A DNA stretch of 12,862 nt from Candidatus Thorarchaeota archaeon (GTDB taxonomy: Archaea; Asgardarchaeota; Thorarchaeia; Thorarchaeales; Thorarchaeaceae), in contig JAWAQK010000061.1 in assembly GCA_038893995.1 (NCBI GenBank), forward strand, positions 1 to 12,862, given 5' to 3'. Under the pieces are notes generated by a model that did not search any database, had not been told where the DNA came from, and worked only from the letters and a program-made list of their open reading frames with translations. Made by a program: the position numbers and the translations under genes. The stretch's first letter is position 1. The number at the start of each line of letters is the position of its first letter. Shown here one piece after another: positions 1 to 10,160 of the stretch.

Positions 1-308
1 GAAAGGTATTCCATGAGAACAGCACTGTGCCACCAGACGACCCGTTGCAGAAGCAGATCCCAGATTGAGGGGATTGAAAGCCGTCGGACCCATGCAGGTG
101 GCCCGTGCTGGTGATGTTGCAGAAGCAGATCCCAGATTGAGGGGATTGAAAGCATCGACATAGGAACGCCAGTATTGGAAGGACGAGAATGGTTGCAGAA
201 GCAGATCCCAGATTGAGGGGATTGAAAGAGTACTGGCGGAGTTTCGCTGATGTCTACATAAAATCAGTTGTTGCAGGAGCAGATCCCAGAGATTGAGGGG
301 ATTGAAAG
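1..308 (+). CRISPR. CRISPR array, trailer-side end (continues upstream of the window); repeat GTTGCAGAAGCAGATCCCAGATTGAGGGGATTGAAAG (37 bp)
   Basis: Partial repeat at 1-5 (GAAAG); identical repeats at 44-80, 116-152 and 192-228; variant at 270-308 (A8G plus a 2-nt GA insertion in the loop). Unique spacers of 38, 35, 39 and 41 nt. The repeat has an internal ATCCC/GGGAT stem and a 3' ATTGAAAG end, typical of Cas6-processed type I/III archaeal repeats. Degeneration increases rightwards, so the leader is probably left of the window. Confidence 0.97.
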
Positions 309-309
309 A

Positions 310-417
310 TTGAAGATAGATGATCCACTGGTCTTGTTTGTGATGTTGGTGATTCTTCTAGTGATATTATACATTGTGATGAAGGTGATGAAGATTGCCC
401 TGGGACTACGTGTATGA
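310..417 (+). CDS. Putative 35-aa single-TM peptide inside the oversized CRISPR spacer (may be the 3' fragment of a captured gene)
   Basis: Translated by hand (not in the ORF track): TTG start, MKIDDPLVLFVMLVILLVILYIVMKVMKIALGLRV, TGA at 415-417. It has an ~18-residue hydrophobic run followed by basic residues. The repeat's GAGGGG (295-300) lies 9 nt before the TTG. It overlaps the next ORF. Confidence 0.4.
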   Translation: MKIDDPLVLFVMLVILLVILYIVMKVMKIALGLRV

Positions 418-691
418 GGCGCTCAAGAGAGTCGGCACTCTCAGACCAGAACTCGTCGGTACGCAGGCGAGAGATTATGTGTATGTTTTGTCGCTTGACA
501 GTGGTGAAGAGATAGGTAGAGTCGTGTACAACAAGGCTGAGCAGACAGTACTGCTGGTGGGTGACGATGGCGATGACACCGTACGCTTTGCACTACGTCT
601 CAAGCTCAAGGGAGACCTTGCAGAAGACTTCATGAGAAATGTAAGGAAGGGGATCAGACTCAGATGGTCGCAGGAGCAGATCCCAGATTGA
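395..691 (+). CDS. 98-aa hypothetical protein inside the oversized CRISPR spacer; C-terminus and stop codon supplied by the downstream repeat
   Basis: Open frame with a globular alpha/beta-like composition. Archaeal SD AGGTGA at 383-388 lies 6 nt before TTG 395. The last residues SQEQIPD and TGA (668-691) are read from the degenerate repeat. Confidence 0.6.
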   Translation: MPWDYVYEALKRVGTLRPELVGTQARDYVYVLSLDSGEEIGRVVYNKAEQTVLLVGDDGDDTVRFALRLKLKGDLAEDFMRNVRKGIRLRWSQEQIPD

Positions 692-696
692 GGGGA
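667..696 (+). repeat. Degenerate CRISPR repeat lacking the 3' TTGAAAG
   Basis: GTCGCAGGAGCAGATCCCAGATTGAGGGGA matches the first 30 nt of the consensus at 28/30 positions and shares the A8G variant with repeat 270-308. Confidence 0.93.
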
Positions 697-712
697 CCGG
701 GGGGTCCCCTTT
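691..712 (+). terminator. GC-rich hairpin replacing the 3' end of the degenerate repeat; possible terminator or processing signal
   Basis: Perfect 8-bp stem AGGGGACC (691-698) / GGTCCCCT (703-710) with a 4-nt loop and only a short T run after it. Confidence 0.3.
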
Positions 713-727
713 CCGCGCAGATATGTG

Positions 728-735
728 TTTAAGTA
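728..735 (+). promoter_or_regulatory. Possible TATA box for the membrane-protein gene
   Basis: TTTAAGTA in an AT-rich patch about 45 nt upstream of ATG 780. Confidence 0.35.
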
Positions 736-743
736 GTAGGGAG

Positions 744-779
744 GTCTCGGGGCAGTATCCCGATTGAGAGGACTGAGAG
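744..779 (+). repeat. Highly degenerate terminal CRISPR repeat
   Basis: GTCTCGGGGCAGTATCCCGATTGAGAGGACTGAGAG. The last 18 nt match the consensus 15/18 and the GCAG(T)ATCCC core is retained. It starts 77 nt after the 667 repeat, within the array period of 72-78 nt. Confidence 0.7.
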
Positions 780-2381
780 ATGCAGTGGTGTCGGGTCGCG
801 TCCCTGCTGGTGAGTGTGCGTCAAGTCGCTCGCTCCGCTCTGGTGGATTCGCCCAGGTCTCGATCGCTCGTGAAGGCTCTCGTGACGGGGGTCCTCCTTC
901 TCGACCTATTCATCGTCCTGTTCGTCCTGGCTGTGATGGTCATCCGGCAGTCGTCTGCAGGGCTAGGCATGCTTGACTCCATTCCCCTTGCGTTGTATGT
1001 CCTGCCACTTACGATCATCATCCCATCTCTGTCGAGGGCCTGCTACCGTCTTCAGAATGGGCTTCTGTTCATTCTCATCATGTTGCTGGCGTCTGTCGTG
1101 CTGCTGACCGTGTCGGTCCTTGTACGTCTCCTGTTGCTGGTGTCTCTCCTGAACGTGATATCAGCTATACTCGTCTCTCTTGTGGCCGAGCTGAAACCGA
1201 GAGGTAGTCTGAGATCGGTTGGACGTCGTGGGCTTGTCTGGCTAGTCATTCTCAATCTGGTCGGGCTCATGTTTCCAGCATCAGTGTATCTCATGGGTCA
1301 GAATCCTATCACGACCGTCCGTGGTGGTCCGCCGGCTCACATCAGCCTTGAGGTACCCCTTGCACCATTCTCCCCCCAGACTGTGCCAGTGCCGCCAGAC
1401 GCCCAGCTTGTCAACGGCATCGAAGATGGTGATTTCGGGGTCACCCTCTGGGTCCTCGCACAGAGTGACGAGTCCATGGCCCTGCTGAGGGGCTGGATTG
1501 CCTCCCTGAGGAGCACTGAGGTACCAGTTGTCATTGTCATATCTGCCGACAGGGAAGCACACCTGTCCCCTGTTCCAGACACACTTGGCTCCACGGAGAC
1601 GACCATTCTCATTCTATCGGAGATCGGTGAGGCGATTGGAGATGTCGTGACTATCCTCAGTGAGGAGGGAATGCCTGCGGACCGCCTCTCCATCCTACTC
1701 GACCTGACCCTGTCTGACTCTGAGTTTGAAGTCCTGATGTCAAGGGTCCGCTCTATCGACCTGTTCGGATTTGCCTCGCTCTTCAGGGCCTCACTGGAGA
1801 GAGTAGATCTGACGATGGTAGCGCCCGTCCTTGATTCCGTAGTCGAGGAGGCGCGCTCTGCCGGCCTGAGGATTGGAGCAAGAGTGGAGGGGTATGTGAT
1901 AGACGATGCTCTTGACTCAGACGCTCTCTTCATGTTGACCTGCGGGCTGGACCTGAACATGCTCTCGCGACTGGATCTGGTCGAGCTGGACTGCCAGAGG
2001 TATCGCTACTCGATGCACATGGCCGGCGATGTCGGTGAGTATCTTGTTCATTCCTACTCTAGGACAGCCGCGATCAGTCCCCTGGGAGTCCCATGGACAC
2101 TGAGACTTGGTGTTGTTGACACTGACGCATACGACGACTGTTGTCTCTACTCACTGGCATCTCTTGTGAGCGATATTGTGATAGCTGGTGCTAACGGTGT
2201 CCAGAGGGTGACCGTCTCTTCTCTTGACGGTCTCACGGCAGGGCCTGGTGTGGACGGCGTGACAATGTTGAGGGCCGCACTGAATGCAGCCGGACCACAG
2301 GATATTACCTACACCTTCAGGATCTACGCCTTCAGGTCTATACTGATGGCCCTCGACACGCTTGATCCAGTGATGCTGTGA
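780..2381 (+). CDS. Hypothetical membrane protein (about 5 N-terminal TM helices plus a ~360-aa soluble alpha/beta domain)
   Basis: 533-aa ORF with several long hydrophobic segments in the first ~170 aa and no recognisable motif. Exact start uncertain. Confidence 0.8.
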   Translation: MQWCRVASLLVSVRQVARSALVDSPRSRSLVKALVTGVLLLDLFIVLFVLAVMVIRQSSAGLGMLDSIPLALYVLPLTIIIPSLSRACYRLQNGLLFILIMLLASVVLLTVSVLVRLLLLVSLLNVISAILVSLVAELKPRGSLRSVGRRGLVWLVILNLVGLMFPASVYLMGQNPITTVRGGPPAHISLEVPLAPFSPQTVPVPPDAQLVNGIEDGDFGVTLWVLAQSDESMALLRGWIASLRSTEVPVVIVISADREAHLSPVPDTLGSTETTILILSEIGEAIGDVVTILSEEGMPADRLSILLDLTLSDSEFEVLMSRVRSIDLFGFASLFRASLERVDLTMVAPVLDSVVEEARSAGLRIGARVEGYVIDDALDSDALFMLTCGLDLNMLSRLDLVELDCQRYRYSMHMAGDVGEYLVHSYSRTAAISPLGVPWTLRLGVVDTDAYDDCCLYSLASLVSDIVIAGANGVQRVTVSSLDGLTAGPGVDGVTMLRAALNAAGPQDITYTFRIYAFRSILMALDTLDPVML

Positions 2382-3600: not shown

Positions 3601-3855
3601 AGTCCTTCCGCGAGTCGTTACCTCGTGTTGCGGGAGTAGTCTCCAGGACTGGGTCGCGCCTGTGCCTCTGGCGGTCGTGACCATGTGCTGCGTCGCACGC
3701 CAGGCAGGCTCAGTGCATACAGGTGTCTCCGTCATAGCAGTGTCAGTCTAGCCTGAACATCCGTCATAGTAATGTTGATAGACTGTCTGACATTGGGTGA
3801 TGCAGAATGGACTCCCTCCCATGGTAGAGTACGTCCGCGACAGAGGCTGGTCCGA

Positions 3856-5802
3856 TTGATTCACAATGTCCTCATCATCGACAGTAAGGATGGTACTATT
3901 CTTGTCCGGGTCAGGTTCTGGAAGATCGATTTCCTTGAGCAACACGTGAACGAGTTCCTGATCGGGTACCGAGACCTCAAGGAGACAGAGGGCATCGCAG
4001 ACGACACTCCGATATTCGTGGACAAGCACAAGGTGTTTCACAGTCCGATCAACGACGACATGATCCTGTTGTTTGTGACCGACGGACGCGATGAGGATCG
4101 CGTGATAAGACACAAGGTGAGAGAGGGCGCCGCAAGAGTGGCCACAGCCCTGAGAGGGAGCACCATCAGCTACGTCCGTGACAACTTGAGTGACATCCTT
4201 GGAGAGCTCATCTTCACTCACTTCAAGGTCTCGTTCGTTGGGTCTGGTGGTGTCGGAAAGAGTACTCTGCTCAGGCTCCTGTTTGGCAAGGACCCGGCCC
4301 CGGGAGGATATGTGCCGACGATCAACGTATCAGTCGACTCGTCAGAGACAATCCAGTTTGGTACTTTCATGGTGACTATCTGGGACTTTGCAGGACAGGC
4401 GGTGTTTCAGGATCTATGGGGGTTCTACTTCCAGGGCACTGATATCATCTTCCTTGTCACCGACTCCAGTTTCCGCAACGTGATGCAGACCAAGACTCTG
4501 TTGAGGAGCATCCGGAAGGAGGCCCCCGCAGTACCACTGTTCATAGTCGCCAACAAGCAGGACCTCCCCGAGTCTATGAAGGCTGACAAGATTCAACGAC
4601 TGCTTGGAGCGCCAACCTTCCCAATGGTGGCCACTGACAGGTCTCGCAGGGAGGAGTTCATCAGGTTCATGCTTGAGGTTGCCGCCAAGACAGTTGGCGT
4701 TCAACTGCCAGATCTCCCATTGAGCGAGATGATCACAGTCCACAGGCGCTCCGAACCAGTCTCTGCCCCCGATGCCGAGGCAATCGAGAGGATGCGTAGT
4801 ACGCCGAGGGACCACGGTTTCGAGGATGTGCCCTGCGAAACTGAAGAGGAGCCGTGTGAGGCAGATTTACCTGCAGAGGATCTACCGGTTGAATCGACAG
4901 GTGAGGCTGTCACGCAGAGAGTCCCGGTCCACGAATCGACTGCCACAGATTCCGCTCCACAACCAGCCACATCAAAGATACTCCATCTCGCCCTGCTCCT
5001 GAGGAGAGAGGGCCTCTATGAACCAGTGTTCCACCTAGACTATGCCGAAGAGTCGTCATCAACGAGCTCGCTGGCTGGTGTGATCTCAGCCCTCGACTCG
5101 TTCAGCGGCATTGAGGCCGAGAGCGAGGATGGGACGGTCACCGATGCGCTCAGGACGATCAAACACGAGGGCAATCTTGTACTGGTCGAGAGGTCCAATC
5201 ACTTCATACTCGTCATGGTAGTGACCGGAAGTGCTGAAGACCGTCGACAGGTGCTGAGCTCCCTACTGACTGAGATTGAGGACATGTACCGTGACGTCTG
5301 GGACAACTGGAATGGTGATAAGAGCGTCTTCGAGACCTGTGTCTTCGCAGTGATCGATAGGATTCCCCTGAAACATGTGAGTCTCGACTACATGCTCAAG
5401 ACGCGCGAGGCGGGGAAGAACCTGCCCTTCTCGAACAGGGAGGTGGGCAGAGAGATCGTTGAGGTGCTGAGCGCAATAGAGCCGAACATGACCGTTGGTG
5501 GACTAGTGCGCGCCCTGGGTCTGCCGAGGGAGGTCGTGCTTGGTGCCCTCCAGATACTGGTCAAGTTTGGCTGGGTCGATTTCAGGGTCGAGGTCTTGCC
5601 GAGCAGCATGCTGAGGAAGATAGGTCCGGTCGACGAGGAGACGAGAAAGACCTACGGCGATGTCATAGTGAAGTTTGCAGACATGTGCGATGGGACTTCG
5701 ACTCTAGAGGAGGTCGCGAAGCGGGCCAATCTGAGTCTACCGGCCATGCGGTTCGTCGCTACCAAGCTAGTCCTCAATGGAGTACTTGAGATAGTGGTCT
5801 GA
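3856..5802 (+). CDS. Asgard-type multidomain small GTPase: longin - Arf-like GTPase - acidic linker - longin - 2x winged helix
   Basis: G1 GSGGVGKST (from 4240), G2 PT, G3 WDFAGQ (4381-4398), G4 NKQD (4552-4563). The start is re-called at TTG 3856 (MIHNVLIIDSKDG, resembling a longin first strand; GAGG upstream) instead of ATG 3772. A second longin-like block (LAGVISALDSF...YRDVWDNWNGDKSVF) and two wHTH-like repeats follow. Confidence 0.88.
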   Translation: MIHNVLIIDSKDGTILVRVRFWKIDFLEQHVNEFLIGYRDLKETEGIADDTPIFVDKHKVFHSPINDDMILLFVTDGRDEDRVIRHKVREGAARVATALRGSTISYVRDNLSDILGELIFTHFKVSFVGSGGVGKSTLLRLLFGKDPAPGGYVPTINVSVDSSETIQFGTFMVTIWDFAGQAVFQDLWGFYFQGTDIIFLVTDSSFRNVMQTKTLLRSIRKEAPAVPLFIVANKQDLPESMKADKIQRLLGAPTFPMVATDRSRREEFIRFMLEVAAKTVGVQLPDLPLSEMITVHRRSEPVSAPDAEAIERMRSTPRDHGFEDVPCETEEEPCEADLPAEDLPVESTGEAVTQRVPVHESTATDSAPQPATSKILHLALLLRREGLYEPVFHLDYAEESSSTSSLAGVISALDSFSGIEAESEDGTVTDALRTIKHEGNLVLVERSNHFILVMVVTGSAEDRRQVLSSLLTEIEDMYRDVWDNWNGDKSVFETCVFAVIDRIPLKHVSLDYMLKTREAGKNLPFSNREVGREIVEVLSAIEPNMTVGGLVRALGLPREVVLGALQILVKFGWVDFRVEVLPSSMLRKIGPVDEETRKTYGDVIVKFADMCDGTSTLEEVAKRANLSLPAMRFVATKLVLNGVLEIVV

Positions 5803-5809
5803 AGAGAGT

Positions 5810-7948
5810 TCAGACGTCAATGCTTATTCGTTCACCCGGTCTGGGTAGCATTATCTCGGGAGGTGGTCTCTGCTCCGGCGTGTGGACCATCACCCTCTTG
5901 CCACCACACGACATGATCCACTCCTCGAGCTTTCCTGAGGATGTGTGTGCTGAAAGTCTTGCGTATTCCACCCTGCATGCATGGCTCTCCAGTCCCTTGA
6001 GTAAGTTCCAGCCTGGTGTCCGAGGTGCAAGGTAACCACACAGGATCACGGCGGCATCAGGGTCGTTTCGGTATTCCTGGAATGTCGACCAGGCAAGACC
6101 TCCGCTCATCATACCGCCACCACTCACGAGCACGTCCTCCCTTTCGAGTGTCACCTTGTTCTTCTTGATGGCAGACCATCTGCCGCTGAGACCGCACACC
6201 TTTGTCACTCTGTCGGCCATTCCTGCTACTATGACATTTCTGCTCCCTGTGATGCCCATCCTCTCAAGCATCAGGAGGATCTCCTGAGCCCTGCCCACAG
6301 CAAAGCTGGGAATGATGACTGGTCCGTGGTCGGCAATGACCTCGGCAATCTGACCGGCCGCCCGGTCCCTGTCGAAGTCTTCGCGTTGCCAGTATGTTCC
6401 GTCGTAGATGGTCAGGTCACAGTCAGTGGGAAGGCTGGCCCCCTCGAACAGTGCGGAGCGCTCAGCATTGAAGTCGCCCGTATAGAGGATCCTCACCCCC
6501 TCTATGTCGATGATGAAGCCAGCGCTCCCCGGTATGTGAGACGCCGGTATGGGTGTGACCATGATACCGCCAGCCAGCTCGGCGGTCTTCCCATATTCGA
6601 GACTGACGTGTGAGTCCATGACCCTCCTCAGACTGGCTGCGCTGACCCCTCGCACAGGTTCCTCTGGCGGGATACGACCAGACGAGGTTGGCATCCCCAC
6701 CCTCATTGCGTCATCGAGTAGTATCGAGGATATTGGGCCAGTCAGCCCGACCGAGCACCAGTTGCCTCGATAGGTCTCGTACAGGATGGGTAGTCCTCCC
6801 ACATGGTCGAGATGGGCATGACTCACGAGCACACAGTCGACCATCTCGATCTCCGGAATCCAGCGTGGCACTCTCAGATTTGCCACAGACAGACCATAGT
6901 CCATCAGTATGCACGCCGTGTCAGTCCTGACCAGTATTCCGCTTCGTCCAATCTCTGTGCCAGCGAGGAAGAATACCTCGATCCTTCTGGTCTTTCTCGA
7001 GTAGACGACTGAACCCAGGAGACTCTTCCTCAGCCTGTCAGGGACCAACTCAAGGACTATCGTGTTCGAGAGCTCGATGGCCGGTGGTGCAGGCAGCCGG
7101 TGGAGATTGATGGGTAGGACGGAGCCGGGTCCCGAGCTGATGCCCTCGCGGATGAATACTCCCTCGACCTTGTCAATGGCATCCTCAACGCTATCTTCAG
7201 ATGTGATCTCTCTCTGAGCATTCGAATAGGCTCGTCTCAGGCAGGACGCCAGTACCTCCGATGACAGGCTGTCGGGTAGCCATTCTTGCGTCGCCTGCCT
7301 GAGGTCCACATACCTCCTTCCCTCTGTGGCCTCGTCGACGTAGGCCGGATGTCTGACTAGCGTGCTGACTAACCTGAAGTCCTCCTCCTGTAGGACTGAG
7401 TCGATATCAATCCCCGCGGAACGTGCCTCTTCTGCGAGGTCGCTGGGCAGACACAGTGAGATGCCGGTGTAGTCAATCCACTCCCTGACCCTCGACAGGA
7501 ACGGTCTGGGTTGTTCCTCGGAGGCTGCTGACAGGAAGACTATGGCTGACCTGACATGTCTCTCAATCGCGGTACTGTCGCGCCTGGTCGATAGCGAGAT
7601 GCGTACCAGGTATCTGAAGTCCTCCCTATCGTAGACTCCGACCAGGACGCCATAGGTGCAGAAAGATATGCAGTCCCTCAGGGTAGCCTCATCTGCTCCC
7701 CTGGCCTGTTGGAGATAGACGTTCTCCAGGCTCCGATACACATGTTCTCCGGTTGCCAGCCAGGAGGCATCTGCCCCGATGGCATGGCTCAGTGCACACA
7801 CGATCAGTTCTCCGGTCTCTCCAAACAGCCCTCTGAAGTCTGGATGCCTGCGTTCTGTCACACAGGCCAGTGCGTCGCGCAAGAGTCCTGCGATACGTGG
7901 GTTCTTGATCCTGTCAGCCAGGCTCCTCATTCTTTCTACGCTACTCAT
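5810..7948 (-). CDS. Metallo-beta-lactamase / beta-CASP ribonuclease (aCPSF2/YSH1-like) with a ~320-aa unknown N-terminal extension
   Basis: GTEIGRS, MDYG, SHAHLDHVGGLP (HxHxDH), SHIPGSA, YTGDF, DGTY, PSFAVGRAQE, SAH and VH motifs in the C-terminal ~390 aa. Confidence 0.9.
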   Translation of the reverse strand: MSSVERMRSLADRIKNPRIAGLLRDALACVTERRHPDFRGLFGETGELIVCALSHAIGADASWLATGEHVYRSLENVYLQQARGADEATLRDCISFCTYGVLVGVYDREDFRYLVRISLSTRRDSTAIERHVRSAIVFLSAASEEQPRPFLSRVREWIDYTGISLCLPSDLAEEARSAGIDIDSVLQEEDFRLVSTLVRHPAYVDEATEGRRYVDLRQATQEWLPDSLSSEVLASCLRRAYSNAQREITSEDSVEDAIDKVEGVFIREGISSGPGSVLPINLHRLPAPPAIELSNTIVLELVPDRLRKSLLGSVVYSRKTRRIEVFFLAGTEIGRSGILVRTDTACILMDYGLSVANLRVPRWIPEIEMVDCVLVSHAHLDHVGGLPILYETYRGNWCSVGLTGPISSILLDDAMRVGMPTSSGRIPPEEPVRGVSAASLRRVMDSHVSLEYGKTAELAGGIMVTPIPASHIPGSAGFIIDIEGVRILYTGDFNAERSALFEGASLPTDCDLTIYDGTYWQREDFDRDRAAGQIAEVIADHGPVIIPSFAVGRAQEILLMLERMGITGSRNVIVAGMADRVTKVCGLSGRWSAIKKNKVTLEREDVLVSGGGMMSGGLAWSTFQEYRNDPDAAVILCGYLAPRTPGWNLLKGLESHACRVEYARLSAHTSSGKLEEWIMSCGGKRVMVHTPEQRPPPEIMLPRPGERISIDV

Positions 7949-9026
7949 CTATGTAGACCTCCCCAGCGGTCGACGTCGTTCCAGACCTCGCTATTGCAAA
8001 TATTGACTGCCTGCTGTCTCTGAGCGACACACGTCGCGTGACCAGCCCCTCCGATATGAGTGTGGAGAGCGCGTGTCTGACGGTCCTTGCTGGTAACTTC
8101 GTCTCCTCGACAATCTCGCTCTGCGTCATGGAGTCTTGGTACTCGAGTACCTTCAGTACGAGTTTGGCGCTTGGTGGTAGGTCGTGTGGCACACTCTCAG
8201 GGGTCTGCGTTTTCCTCTGCAGCTTGCCCTGCAGCATCGCGACCCTCTCATCAGTCAGCTTCACCACGAGTGCATCGTGAGGAGACCTCATGATCTCTAT
8301 CGCTCTGTCCCTGATTGGTCTTCTTATCTGGCCATCGAGTACTGCCTCTACGGCCGTGCGTGGAGAGATCTCGCCCACTCCAATCCTGGTGGTGTCTGGA
8401 ACAATCAGGGGTCGTCTCATTGGGTTTCCACTGTTCACAGGTACTATGGCCACAACCCTTGCAGAGTTCAGTATGACAGGACCACCTACACTCATGGCGT
8501 AGGCCGTACTGCCTGTCGGAGTCGTGACAATGACTCCGTCAGCAGAGTCCTTCCAGACGCGTTCTCCGTCTATTGTGAGTGAGTAGGTGATCAGTGTAGC
8601 GCTTCTCTTGGCAAAGACCCCTATCTCATTGAGCACTGGAGGCGTCTGCTTTCCCGAGATTGTCGCAACAATTCGGGACCGGCGGTCCACACTCCACCTG
8701 CGTTGGACTATGTCATCAGCGACCGAGCTGAAGTTGTCTGCTGTCACATCGAACAGGAAGTCGGGTTGACCACGTGAGGCGACGGGAAGGATAGGTACTT
8801 CCCGGCTCCCGAGTCTGAGTAGTGTGTAGAGCAGGGTCCGGTCAGAGCCCACAACCAGCAGGAGGTCGACGTCCATGTGCTCCAGAGGTTCCCCGGACTC
8901 CCCTCTCTCTTGACCTATGAACTCATCAAGGACGACATCGACACCCCTCTCTCTGAGGGGAATGGCAATCCTGACCGCGTCCTCTATCATTCCTGCCTCG
9001 TGGCCGGACACGACCCCGACCTTCAA
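7941..9026 (-). CDS. NAD kinase-fold protein fused to a C-terminal winged-helix (MarR-like) DNA-binding domain
   Basis: NAD kinase motifs VLNEI, DGVIVTTPTGSTAYAMSVGGP and LDGQ are present; the GGDGT motif reads GSDRT (8835-8849). The C-terminal LPPSAKLVLKVLEYQDSMTQSEIVEETKLPARTVRHALSTLISEGLV...RDSRQSIF is an archaeal wHTH. Overlaps the RNase start by 8 nt. Confidence 0.9.
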   Translation of the reverse strand: MKVGVVSGHEAGMIEDAVRIAIPLRERGVDVVLDEFIGQERGESGEPLEHMDVDLLLVVGSDRTLLYTLLRLGSREVPILPVASRGQPDFLFDVTADNFSSVADDIVQRRWSVDRRSRIVATISGKQTPPVLNEIGVFAKRSATLITYSLTIDGERVWKDSADGVIVTTPTGSTAYAMSVGGPVILNSARVVAIVPVNSGNPMRRPLIVPDTTRIGVGEISPRTAVEAVLDGQIRRPIRDRAIEIMRSPHDALVVKLTDERVAMLQGKLQRKTQTPESVPHDLPPSAKLVLKVLEYQDSMTQSEIVEETKLPARTVRHALSTLISEGLVTRRVSLRDSRQSIFAIARSGTTSTAGEVYIDE

Positions 9027-9099: not shown

Positions 9100-9151
9100 C
9101 AAATGGCAAAAGTTGCCTGTTGCGCACACATCATGCATGTGTTGCCTGTTG
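9100..9151. promoter_or_regulatory. Two tandem imperfect 23-bp palindromes (consensus CAACAGGCAA-N3-TTGCCTGTTG); candidate operators
   Basis: 9100-9122 CAAATGGCAA-AAG-TTGCCTGTTG and 9129-9151 CATCATGCAT-GTG-TTGCCTGTTG. The right half-sites are identical, and the left halves match their reverse complement 8/10 and 7/10. Confidence 0.6.
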
Positions 9152-9159
9152 GAGTTCTG

Positions 9160-9165
9160 TTAAAT
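9160..9165 (+). promoter_or_regulatory. Probable TATA box of nadA
   Basis: TTAAAT about 36 nt upstream of ATG 9201. Confidence 0.45.
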
Positions 9166-9200
9166 GGGATTCTACCCAGTGCTCACTTGGTGCATCGTCT

Positions 9201-10160
9201 ATGAGACACAGGTCAAGGGCAGAGGGACTTCAGAAGACGGTCCTGAGGCTCAAGCGAGAGAACAATGCGCTGATCCTTGCCCACAACTATCAGCCTATCG
9301 AGATACAGCAGGTTGCTGACTTTGTGGGCGACTCACTTGAACTGGCGCGTCAGTCTGCCTCAGTGAACTCCTACGACGTCGTTGTGTTCGCCGGGGTCCG
9401 GTTCATGGCTGAGGTTGCAGCGATCCTGTCAGAGAAGACCCCCGTCTATCTGCCGAGACCTGACACACTCTGTCCGCTCGCGTCATGGCTGACTCCTGAG
9501 AAGGTCAGGGCCAAGAGGACAGAGTATCCCGATGTGCCCGTCGTCGTCTATGTGAACACCACTGCAGAGGTCAAGGCAGAGGCTGATGCCATATGCACGT
9601 CTGGCAATGCTATCCAGGTCATAGAGTCGCTCGATGCCGACACAGTACTGTTTGGTCCCGATGCCAGTCTCGCCGAGTATGTCCGGCGGCGGTCACATGT
9701 GCGCGTGATCGATCTGGAACCGCTCGGTCACTGCTACGTCCATCGCAGATTCAAGAGTGAGGACATCCTTGCCCTCAAGAGGTCATTCCCCGATGCAAGA
9801 GTCATAGCGCATCCAGAATGTGACGTCGATGTACAGGACATTGCAGACTACGTGTGCTCGACGGGGAGTATGGCGAGAGTGATCTCTGAGAGTCGTTTTG
9901 GACGCTTCATAGTGGCCACTGAGATCGGAATGGTTGAGCAGCTGAGGTCCATGTTTCCTGAGCGCGAGATAATGGCTGCAATGCCGGATGCGGTGTGCCT
10001 GCAGATGAAGAAGAACACGCTTGACGGAATAGTCCATGTACTACGGCACAGACCGCCCGAGAATCTGGTCACAGTTCCGCATGAGGTCGCTCAGCGTGTC
10101 AGAGTACTGATCGATAAGATGACCCAGACCGTCGCGTCTGCACCGGCGATGCGGTCATGA
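9201..10160 (+). CDS. nadA: Quinolinate synthase A
   Basis: LAHNYQ, DFVGDS, GVRFMAE, YVNT, HPEC and three 4Fe-4S cysteines (CPLA, HCYVH, CLQMK). The start is re-called at ATG 9201 because the 9120 extension overlaps the promoter and operators. Confidence 0.96.
   Translation: MRHRSRAEGLQKTVLRLKRENNALILAHNYQPIEIQQVADFVGDSLELARQSASVNSYDVVVFAGVRFMAEVAAILSEKTPVYLPRPDTLCPLASWLTPEKVRAKRTEYPDVPVVVYVNTTAEVKAEADAICTSGNAIQVIESLDADTVLFGPDASLAEYVRRRSHVRVIDLEPLGHCYVHRRFKSEDILALKRSFPDARVIAHPECDVDVQDIADYVCSTGSMARVISESRFGRFIVATEIGMVEQLRSMFPEREIMAAMPDAVCLQMKKNTLDGIVHVLRHRPPENLVTVPHEVAQRVRVLIDKMTQTVASAPAMRS

What the first reader, a model, noticed from the sequence alone, without database searches (positions are those of the whole stretch)
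270..779. CRISPR array carries a 358-nt gene-bearing 'giant spacer' bracketed by matching variant repeats
Seen: after four 35-41-nt spacers, 309-666 (358 nt, ~47% GC by hand count versus ~58-63% in sampled lines of flanking genes) sits between repeat 270-308 and a further repeat at 667. Both flanking repeats share the A8G variant that is absent from the upstream repeats, and the array period resumes afterwards (667 to 744 = 77 nt). The insert is almost fully coding, with two overlapping ORFs and an internal archaeal SD, like a piece of virus or plasmid genome. Established: Cas1-Cas2 integration duplicates the repeat, and spacers are normally trimmed to about 30-45 nt. Inference: this is an untrimmed, gene-sized acquisition (or an element that uses the repeat as its integration site), so the array may act as a gene-capture cassette transcribed from the leader promoter.
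Basis: partly seen in the sequence, partly recalled or inferred. Interest (0 to 1): 0.85.

Follow-up and report, generated by a model that had tools for sequence, protein, structure and literature searches.

The report
Oversized gene-fragment spacer in CRISPR array
One slot at the oldest end of a CRISPR array in a hot-spring Asgard archaeon holds 358 bases of protein-coding DNA instead of about 39; this is real and rare, but it matches a known oddity first described in Sulfolobus and looks like a leftover mistake, not a gene-capture device.

Summary
Positions 309-666 (358 nt) sit exactly between a repeat ending at 308 and a repeat starting at 667, at the leader-distal (oldest) end of a type I-D array in a Thorarchaeota-family MAG. 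Unitigs from the possible source sample and a second sample of the same study span both junctions. The insert is coding DNA: a 35-codon transmembrane frame and a 91-codon frame that runs off the right edge and borrows its stop from the repeat. No homologue or source element was found in any collection searched. Three supporting claims weaken. A8G also marks the third trailer repeat (744), and the two flanking repeats differ by six substitutions plus a 2-nt insertion. The low GC comes from the membrane-helix codons; the longer frame has host-like codon use. Nothing shows expression or selection. Best reading (0.55): an old, untrimmed Cas1-Cas2 acquisition of a gene fragment, now inert. Published precedents: SiL-E1 (2 kb, S. 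islandicus) and an 899-bp plasmid piece in S. solfataricus locus F. This scan has also noted such giant spacers in at least eight other genomes. New member of a known kind; I found no earlier Asgard or type I-D report.

The parts
6..43 (+). Ordinary 38-nt spacer (1-5 is the end of a repeat cut by the contig start)
   Evidence: matches a 5.9-kb contig of run X2 over 6-43 with no other letters
44..228 (+). Three canonical 37-nt type I-D repeats (44-80, 116-152, 192-228) with 35- and 39-nt spacers
   Evidence: repeat family sits beside cas1 and csc2 in three other genomes
229..269 (+). Ordinary 41-nt spacer
270..308 (+). Variant repeat R4: A8G plus a 2-nt AG insertion in the hairpin loop; stem and 8-nt 3' handle intact
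309..666 (+). 358-nt oversized spacer (pseudo-spacer), single copy in the MAG, coding to both edges
310..417 (+). ORF1: 35 codons, one strong transmembrane helix; the frame is open across the left edge, so probably the 3' end of a cut gene (or a tiny TTG-start gene)
   Evidence: no Pfam or PHROG family
384..389 (+). Shine-Dalgarno-like GGTGAT, ending 5 nt before TTG 395
   Evidence: sequence; motif about 5-fold enriched before host starts
395..691 (+). ORF2: 98 aa from TTG 395 (93 aa from GTG 410); predicted helix, five-strand meander, helix; no stop inside the insert, last 7 residues and TGA come from repeat R5
667..703 (+). Degenerate repeat R5, 30/37 identical; all 7 changes are T>C or A>G; its 3' end pairs with 704-713 in a G/C hairpin that competes with the Cas6 stem
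704..743 (+). Last 40-nt spacer; contains a TATA-like box at 728-735
   Evidence: promoter role inferred, not tested
744..779 (+). Terminal, strongly degenerate repeat R6 (shares C3 and G8 with R5), abutting the ATG of the next gene
   Evidence: 0 of 20,000 random windows
780..2381 (+). Conserved 533-aa chromosomal gene that anchors the array in the host chromosome
   Evidence: matches in 63 of 85 genomes of the family

Best explanation
The 358 nt are an oversized spacer ('pseudo-spacer'). Early in this array's life, the type I-D Cas1-Cas2 integrase joined both ends of a DNA piece that Cas4 had not trimmed to the then leader-proximal repeat and duplicated that repeat, as for any spacer. The piece was cut from gene-dense DNA, most likely a virus or plasmid adapted to this host: it ends one membrane-protein gene and carries most of the next. 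Later spacers pushed it to the trailer, where its flanking repeats decayed. Today it is probably read through as part of the pre-crRNA and cut at R4 but not at R5, giving a long RNA that is not a normal guide; it is most likely inert. SHOWN: anatomy, assembly, coding nature, trailer position, array type, presence of cas1 (partial), cas2, cas4 and cas6. INFERRED: Cas1-Cas2 as the agent, mobile-element origin, timing, RNA processing, inertness.
For: The insert begins at the first base after a complete repeat 3' end and stops at the base before a repeat 5' end, and a normal 40-nt unit follows. Coding signal in the expected frame reaches both edges, though modestly, and neither frame has a stop before its edge. 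No transposon signature at the ends. Repeat states form a gradient along the array: C3/G8, C3/G8, T3/G8, then T3/A8. C3 is the usual state of this repeat family in other genomes and also in the C43 terminal repeat, as expected for one array growing from the leader. Leaders lie upstream in repeat orientation at three other contig ends. A type I-D locus with a cas1 3' end, cas2, cas4, cas10d, csc2 and cas6 is on contig C41. The insert is not the gene found at this place in relatives: 17 of 19 relatives' loci have a divergent reductase gene there. Published cases have the same anatomy: SiL-E1 (PMC3718332) and S. solfataricus locus F (PMC4390879).
Against: No source element is identified, so neither foreign origin nor a PAM is shown. 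The two flanking repeats, which should have been identical at integration, now differ by six substitutions and a 2-nt insertion while ORF2 has kept its frame; this needs later decay or conversion of the repeats. ORF2's synonymous codon use (45th percentile of host genes) and the insert's 5-mer profile (62nd percentile) are host-like, which fits host DNA equally well. Cas4, which normally trims prespacers (established knowledge), is present.
Confidence: 0.55

Rival explanations
1. Host-DNA rearrangement. The insert is a lineage-specific chromosomal ORFan pair. R5-R6 is an older two-repeat relic, and a deletion or rearrangement brought the trailer of the active array (ending in R4) next to it, so the 'spacer' was never integrated as a unit.
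For: ORF2 codon use and 5-mer profile are host-like. R5 and R6 share C3, G8, C31 and G35, of which R4 has only G8. The locus is a synteny break: the reductase neighbour seen in relatives lies on contig C38 here. The genus has no second genome in the collection.
Against: Needs G8 in both R4 and R5 by common descent or by chance; G8 is in no other repeat copy listed for the genome. Needs a breakpoint that leaves both junctions flush with repeat ends while cutting ORF2 before its stop. ORF2 was not found in 399 other Asgard genomes searched.
Confidence: 0.15
2. Recombinational capture. An episome recombined with the array, either through two existing spacers that matched it (the alternative proposed for SiL-E1) or through a repeat copy it carried; a larger insertion may later have been whittled down.
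For: Proposed by Jaubert et al. for the same anatomy. Sulfolobus plasmids carry small CRISPR loci. It would allow unlike flanking repeats.
Against: If the last 35-41 nt had been a spacer, its PAM would sit inside the insert at about 623-631. The type I-D GTN motif (recalled from other I-D systems, not established for this one) is absent there; the only GT in 610-666 is at 641. No viral contig with this repeat was found in IMG/VR.
Confidence: 0.15
3. Functional gene-capture cassette. ORF2 (and perhaps ORF1) is translated from the array transcript or from the Cas6-cut RNA starting at 301, ends in the repeat-encoded stop and the hairpin behind it, and is kept by selection.
For: SD-like motif before TTG 395. 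A single-sequence model gives a compact helix/five-strand/helix domain within residues 3-84, inside the insert (pLDDT 65, pTM 0.56). The frame is unbroken although both flanking repeats have decayed. A G/C hairpin follows the stop.
Against: A stop in the repeat arises in one of three frames by chance. The hairpin is not significant (12 of 200 shuffles fold as well) and fails the terminator scan. An SD and an open frame are expected in any fragment of an operon. It is a single case: about 237 spacers of this repeat family in other genomes are at most 63 nt.
Confidence: 0.08
4. Remnant of an integrase-, IS- or MITE-type insertion that targets the repeat or a spacer.
For: Precedents: phage AP1.1 uses the S. 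pyogenes repeat as attB; Tn7-like elements target cyanobacterial arrays; rare IS and MITE insertions occur in archaeal arrays.
Against: Both flanks are full-length repeats, not two halves of one. No terminal inverted repeat or direct repeat above chance (P 0.28 and 0.78). Single copy in the MAG. No spacer remnant is evident, as the coding frames reach both edges. No tyrosine integrase found in the 91% complete MAG.
Confidence: 0.05
5. Assembly chimera through the repeats.
For: Repeats break the assembly at ten other contig ends, and the window starts inside the array.
Against: Unbranched unitigs cross both junctions in two samples at chromosomal depth (7.0 against 7.2, and 5.8 against 5.4), and no joint skips the insert. 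Both flanking repeats are unique variants, so they do not collapse with the consensus. Caveat: one study, and X1 may be the source sample.
Confidence: 0.02

Closest known systems
SiL-E1 'pseudo-spacer' in CRISPR_2 of Sulfolobus islandicus LAL14/1 (Jaubert et al. 2013, PMC3718332)
   Same: Hot-spring archaeon; an ORF-bearing segment far above spacer size fills one slot between repeats and is followed by further repeat-spacer units; the authors proposed faulty protospacer processing or recombination.
   Different: SiL-E1 is about 2 kb with five ORFs, lies between identical repeats and is 82% identical to pING1-like plasmids. This insert is 358 nt, lies between decayed, unlike trailer repeats and has no known source.
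899-bp pNOB8-like fragment in locus F of Sulfolobus solfataricus (reviewed in Garrett et al. 2015, PMC4390879)
   Same: Large fragment inserted between two repeats of an archaeal array.
   Different: That piece matches a plasmid and is about a whole number of repeat-spacer units long; 358 nt falls between the expected 341 and 417.
Type I-D CRISPR-Cas adaptation (Cas1-Cas2-Cas4) and ordinary spacers
   Same: 37-nt hairpin repeat, conserved leaders, I-D cas operon in the genome, flush repeat-insert junctions.
   Different: About nine times the normal length (35-41 nt here); R5 has lost its 8-nt handle sequence, so normal crRNA maturation is unlikely.
Prophage AP1.1 integration into CRISPR repeats (bioRxiv 10.1101/2020.10.09.333658) and array-targeting Tn7-like transposons (PMC11837452)
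   Same: Foreign genes inside a CRISPR array, often at the degenerate terminal repeat.
   Different: These split a repeat at an 8-bp core or insert within a spacer, and carry their own recombinase; neither is seen here.

Membership tests
CRISPR array (type I-D) | Regular 37-nt repeats with unique spacers of constant size | tested here: met
CRISPR array (type I-D) | Conserved leader upstream in repeat orientation | tested here: met
   three similar leaders at C70, C29 and C31; which one belongs to this trailer is unknown
CRISPR array (type I-D) | Cognate cas10d, csc2, cas6 and cas1-cas2-cas4 | tested here: met
   C41 locus, cas1 cut by the contig end, cas10d and cas6 below the curated cut-offs; same repeat family beside the I-D locus in G019, G006 and G400
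Oversized spacer / pseudo-spacer (SiL-E1 type) | Segment far above spacer size occupying one slot, flush with a repeat on each side, array continuing beyond | tested here: met
Oversized spacer / pseudo-spacer (SiL-E1 type) | No hidden degenerate repeats inside (not a decayed stretch of array) | tested here: met
Oversized spacer / pseudo-spacer (SiL-E1 type) | Flanking repeats alike, as after a repeat duplication | tested here: inconclusive
   share G8 but differ by six substitutions and a 2-nt insertion; trailer decay could explain this
Oversized spacer / pseudo-spacer (SiL-E1 type) | Sequence traceable to a mobile element over its whole length | tested here: inconclusive
   no relative found in any collection searched
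Oversized spacer / pseudo-spacer (SiL-E1 type) | PAM next to the leader-proximal end in the source | not testable with these tools
   source unknown
Integrase-mediated insertion into a repeat (AP1.1 type) | One repeat split into attL and attR around a short core | tested here: not met
   both flanks are full-length repeats
Integrase-mediated insertion into a repeat (AP1.1 type) | Integrase gene in the element | tested here: not met
   none in the insert; PF00589 not found in the 91% complete MAG
IS / MITE / Tn7-like insertion | Terminal inverted repeats, target-site duplication, further copies | tested here: not met
Expressed gene cassette | Transcript and translation of ORF1 or ORF2 | not testable with these tools
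   only DNA contigs were available

The most novel reading that the evidence does not exclude
An Asgard type I-D array captured a near-complete small gene that has been domesticated: it is translated from the CRISPR transcript, with the repeat supplying its stop codon and the decayed repeat a terminator, so the array serves as an expression platform for captured genes.
Probability: 0.07. Interest if true: 0.75.

Novelty: new member of a known kind. Interest (0 to 1): 0.3.

Why it matters
As an inert relic, it adds an Asgard, type I-D example to a short published list of gene-sized pieces lodged in spacer slots. That supports the idea that Cas1-Cas2 can sometimes integrate long, untrimmed DNA in vivo even when Cas4 is present. 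Standard array callers treat such slots as array ends, so they are probably under-counted (inference). The insert may also be a 358-nt sample of an unknown Thorarchaeota virus or plasmid, usable as a probe. It would matter much more if ORF2 proved to be translated and selected.

Tried and rejected
Source or homologue searches, all blank: own genome by blastn; IMG/VR by protein patterns, by repeat and by spacer 6-43; 40 relatives and 399 Asgard genomes; the 5.8-billion protein set at near and longer lengths, self only; GTDB contigs; INPHARED phages; Pfam and PHROGs, including reverse frames; Rfam. These mean 'not found in those searched'. Rejected hits: P0006 and P0007 are sums of weak matches over repeat proteins, P0006 being a bacterial FctA-repeat protein; L047 and L048 are 38-residue pattern-selected matches in high-GC bacterial DNA. 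Atlas feature hits (0.80-0.83) are at shuffle level. Fold searches gave only generic beta-meander matches (best Z 6.7 to ThermoDBP-RP2; BFVD best E 1e-3, rmsd 6.1), so no family or function follows. No RNA holder listed. Runs X3 and X4 hold only small downstream parts. No second contig covered 309-666 in the four runs, which does not exclude a rare free element. The flank of the contig matching spacer 6-43 gave no clear PAM from a single case. ORF1 and ORF2 as one frameshifted membrane-anchored gene was considered; the overlap scores do not decide. ORF 268-417, open only through the AG insertion, and the repeat-encoded stop of ORF2 are treated as chance. Shiimori et al. 2018 on Cas4 and spacer length was not held and is not cited as evidence. 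One search timed out and was rerun; two searches were input slips.

Full report
SETTING. The window is the start of contig C61 of a 2.33-Mb, 91% complete MAG held in hot-spring metagenomes. A genome of the same family is labelled Ca. Thorarchaeota (G042:C213 and L065 are the same 3,607-nt contig). The 37-nt repeat occurs at six contig ends. Three carry a conserved leader (C70, C29, C31) and three end in degenerate repeats (C61, C43, C69), so there are probably three arrays broken by the assembler, and this window is a trailer, the oldest end. In three other genomes the same repeat family lies beside cas1 and csc2. This MAG has the orthologous type I-D operon on C41: a cas1 3' end at the contig edge, cas2, cas4, cas10d, csc2 and cas6. 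Two further type I-B loci have their own 30-31-nt repeats.

OBSERVATION. The insert is 309-666, 358 nt, flush with the end of repeat R4 (270-308) and the start of R5 (667-703). A 40-nt spacer and a very degenerate but real R6 (744-779; 0 of 20,000 random windows) follow. No decayed repeat hides in the insert, and its length is not a whole number of units (341 or 417 expected). Unbranched unitigs span both junctions at chromosomal depth in run X1 (possibly the source) and run X2 (another sample of the same study), with no joint that skips the insert. Misassembly is therefore unlikely. The size is exceptional: about 237 spacers of this repeat family in other genomes are 33-48 nt apart from one of 63 nt, and all other spacers seen in this MAG are about 35-41 nt.

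A8G is confined to this trailer but includes R6, so it does not single out the bracket. R4 and R5 differ at position 3, by an AG insertion and at five of the last seven bases; they are not a fresh duplication. Read from the far end, the states run C3/G8, C3/G8, T3/G8, then T3/A8, and C3 is the usual state of this repeat family elsewhere. That fits one array that grew from the leader and decayed at the trailer. The GC deficit is real (1.3rd percentile of genome windows) but comes from the membrane-helix codons of ORF1 (38.5%). ORF2 is 51% GC, its synonymous codon use is at the 45th percentile of host genes, and the insert's 5-mer profile is at the 62nd percentile. Composition therefore does not show foreign origin; a host-adapted virus or plasmid and the host itself both fit.

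THE CARGO. The DNA is coding. ORF2 (395 or 410 to 691) outscores 99.97% of off-frames, and ORF1 (310-417) encodes a hydrophobic helix that none of 1000 shuffles reaches. The favoured frame is ORF1's from the left edge and ORF2's to the right edge. ORF2 has no stop of its own and ends in R5; ORF1's frame is open across the left junction. That is the pattern of a piece cut out of a gene-dense sequence. An SD-like motif precedes ORF2, and a single-sequence model gives a plausible small helix/five-strand/helix domain. No relative was found in any protein, genome, virus or metagenome collection searched, and no fold match rises above the generic (see Tried and rejected). It is not the gene that relatives have here: the 533-aa gene at 780 has matches in 63 of 85 family genomes, and 17 of 19 inspected loci have a divergent reductase gene upstream (by sequence motif, geranylgeranyl-reductase-like), whose best match in this MAG lies on C38.

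MECHANISM. Best (0.55): an untrimmed prespacer was integrated by the I-D Cas1-Cas2 early in the array's history. Flush junctions and cut frames are shown; the agent, the source and the timing are inferred. R4 keeps its stem and 3' handle, so Cas6 probably still cuts at 300/301. R5 has lost the handle sequence and its stem competes with a G/C hairpin (12 of 200 shuffles fold as well, so weak). The likely product is a long RNA that is not a normal guide (inference). Rivals: host rearrangement joining an active trailer to an older two-repeat relic (0.15), favoured by the host-like codons and the closer likeness of R5 to R6; recombination with an episome through spacers or a repeat copy (0.15), disfavoured by the lack of a GTN motif where a second protospacer would start (PAM recalled from other I-D systems); a functional cassette (0.08; compatible with the best reading as to origin); integrase or transposon remnant (0.05; no split repeat, no terminal repeats, single copy); misassembly (0.02).

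COMPARISON. Jaubert et al. described SiL-E1, a 2-kb, five-ORF 'pseudo-spacer' between two repeats of a S. islandicus array, and proposed faulty protospacer processing or recombination (PMC3718332). An 899-bp pNOB8-like piece sits between two repeats in S. solfataricus locus F, and the review notes that such irregularities are very few (PMC4390879). This case works like those and meets the anatomical criteria; the criterion of a traceable mobile source is inconclusive. Earlier notes of this scan report similar giant spacers in at least eight other genomes. They are unchecked leads, and I did not count them as support. My ten literature searches found no Asgard or type I-D case, but the library is partial.

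VERDICT. Real, rare and of a known kind; probably an inert relic whose source is unknown. Interest 0.3. The cassette reading is not excluded (0.07) and would deserve about 0.75.

Noticed in passing
window 6-43: This spacer, near the old end of the array, matches a 5,908-nt contig of run X2 (depth 29, host about 6) with no other letters: a co-occurring virus or plasmid candidate for this Thorarchaeon. The contig could not be fetched.
   Followed up: partly
window 667-713: All seven changes in R5 are T>C or A>G, and its altered 3' end forms a G/C hairpin with the next spacer; this could be one template-switch event that ends array transcription or blocks Cas6.
   Followed up: partly
window 704-782: The last spacer and terminal repeat occupy the promoter and 5' region of the conserved 533-aa gene; a TATA-like box lies at 728-735 and the repeat abuts the ATG.
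   Followed up: no
window 780-2381: 533-aa membrane-anchored protein with no Pfam match, with relatives in 63 of 85 family genomes, usually divergent from a reductase gene; that synteny is broken here.
   Followed up: partly
window 3772-5802: 676-aa protein with small-GTPase motifs in the middle and long N- and C-terminal extensions, by eye an Asgard-type GTPase fusion.
   Followed up: no
window 7941-9026 (-): By eye an NAD kinase with a C-terminal helix-turn-helix extension, divergent from a quinolinate-synthase-like gene at 9120-10160.
   Followed up: no
G000 contigs C41, C48, C72: Three separate adaptation modules (one I-D, two I-B), each with its own repeat family, in a 2.3-Mb genome.
   Followed up: partly
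L049 (G019:C9:1-2456) and L050: Arrays of a relative contain terminal-type degenerate repeats in mid-array, as if arrays had fused or restarted.
   Followed up: no
L066: One 63-nt and one 47-nt spacer in an otherwise 35-42-nt array of the same repeat family.
   Followed up: no
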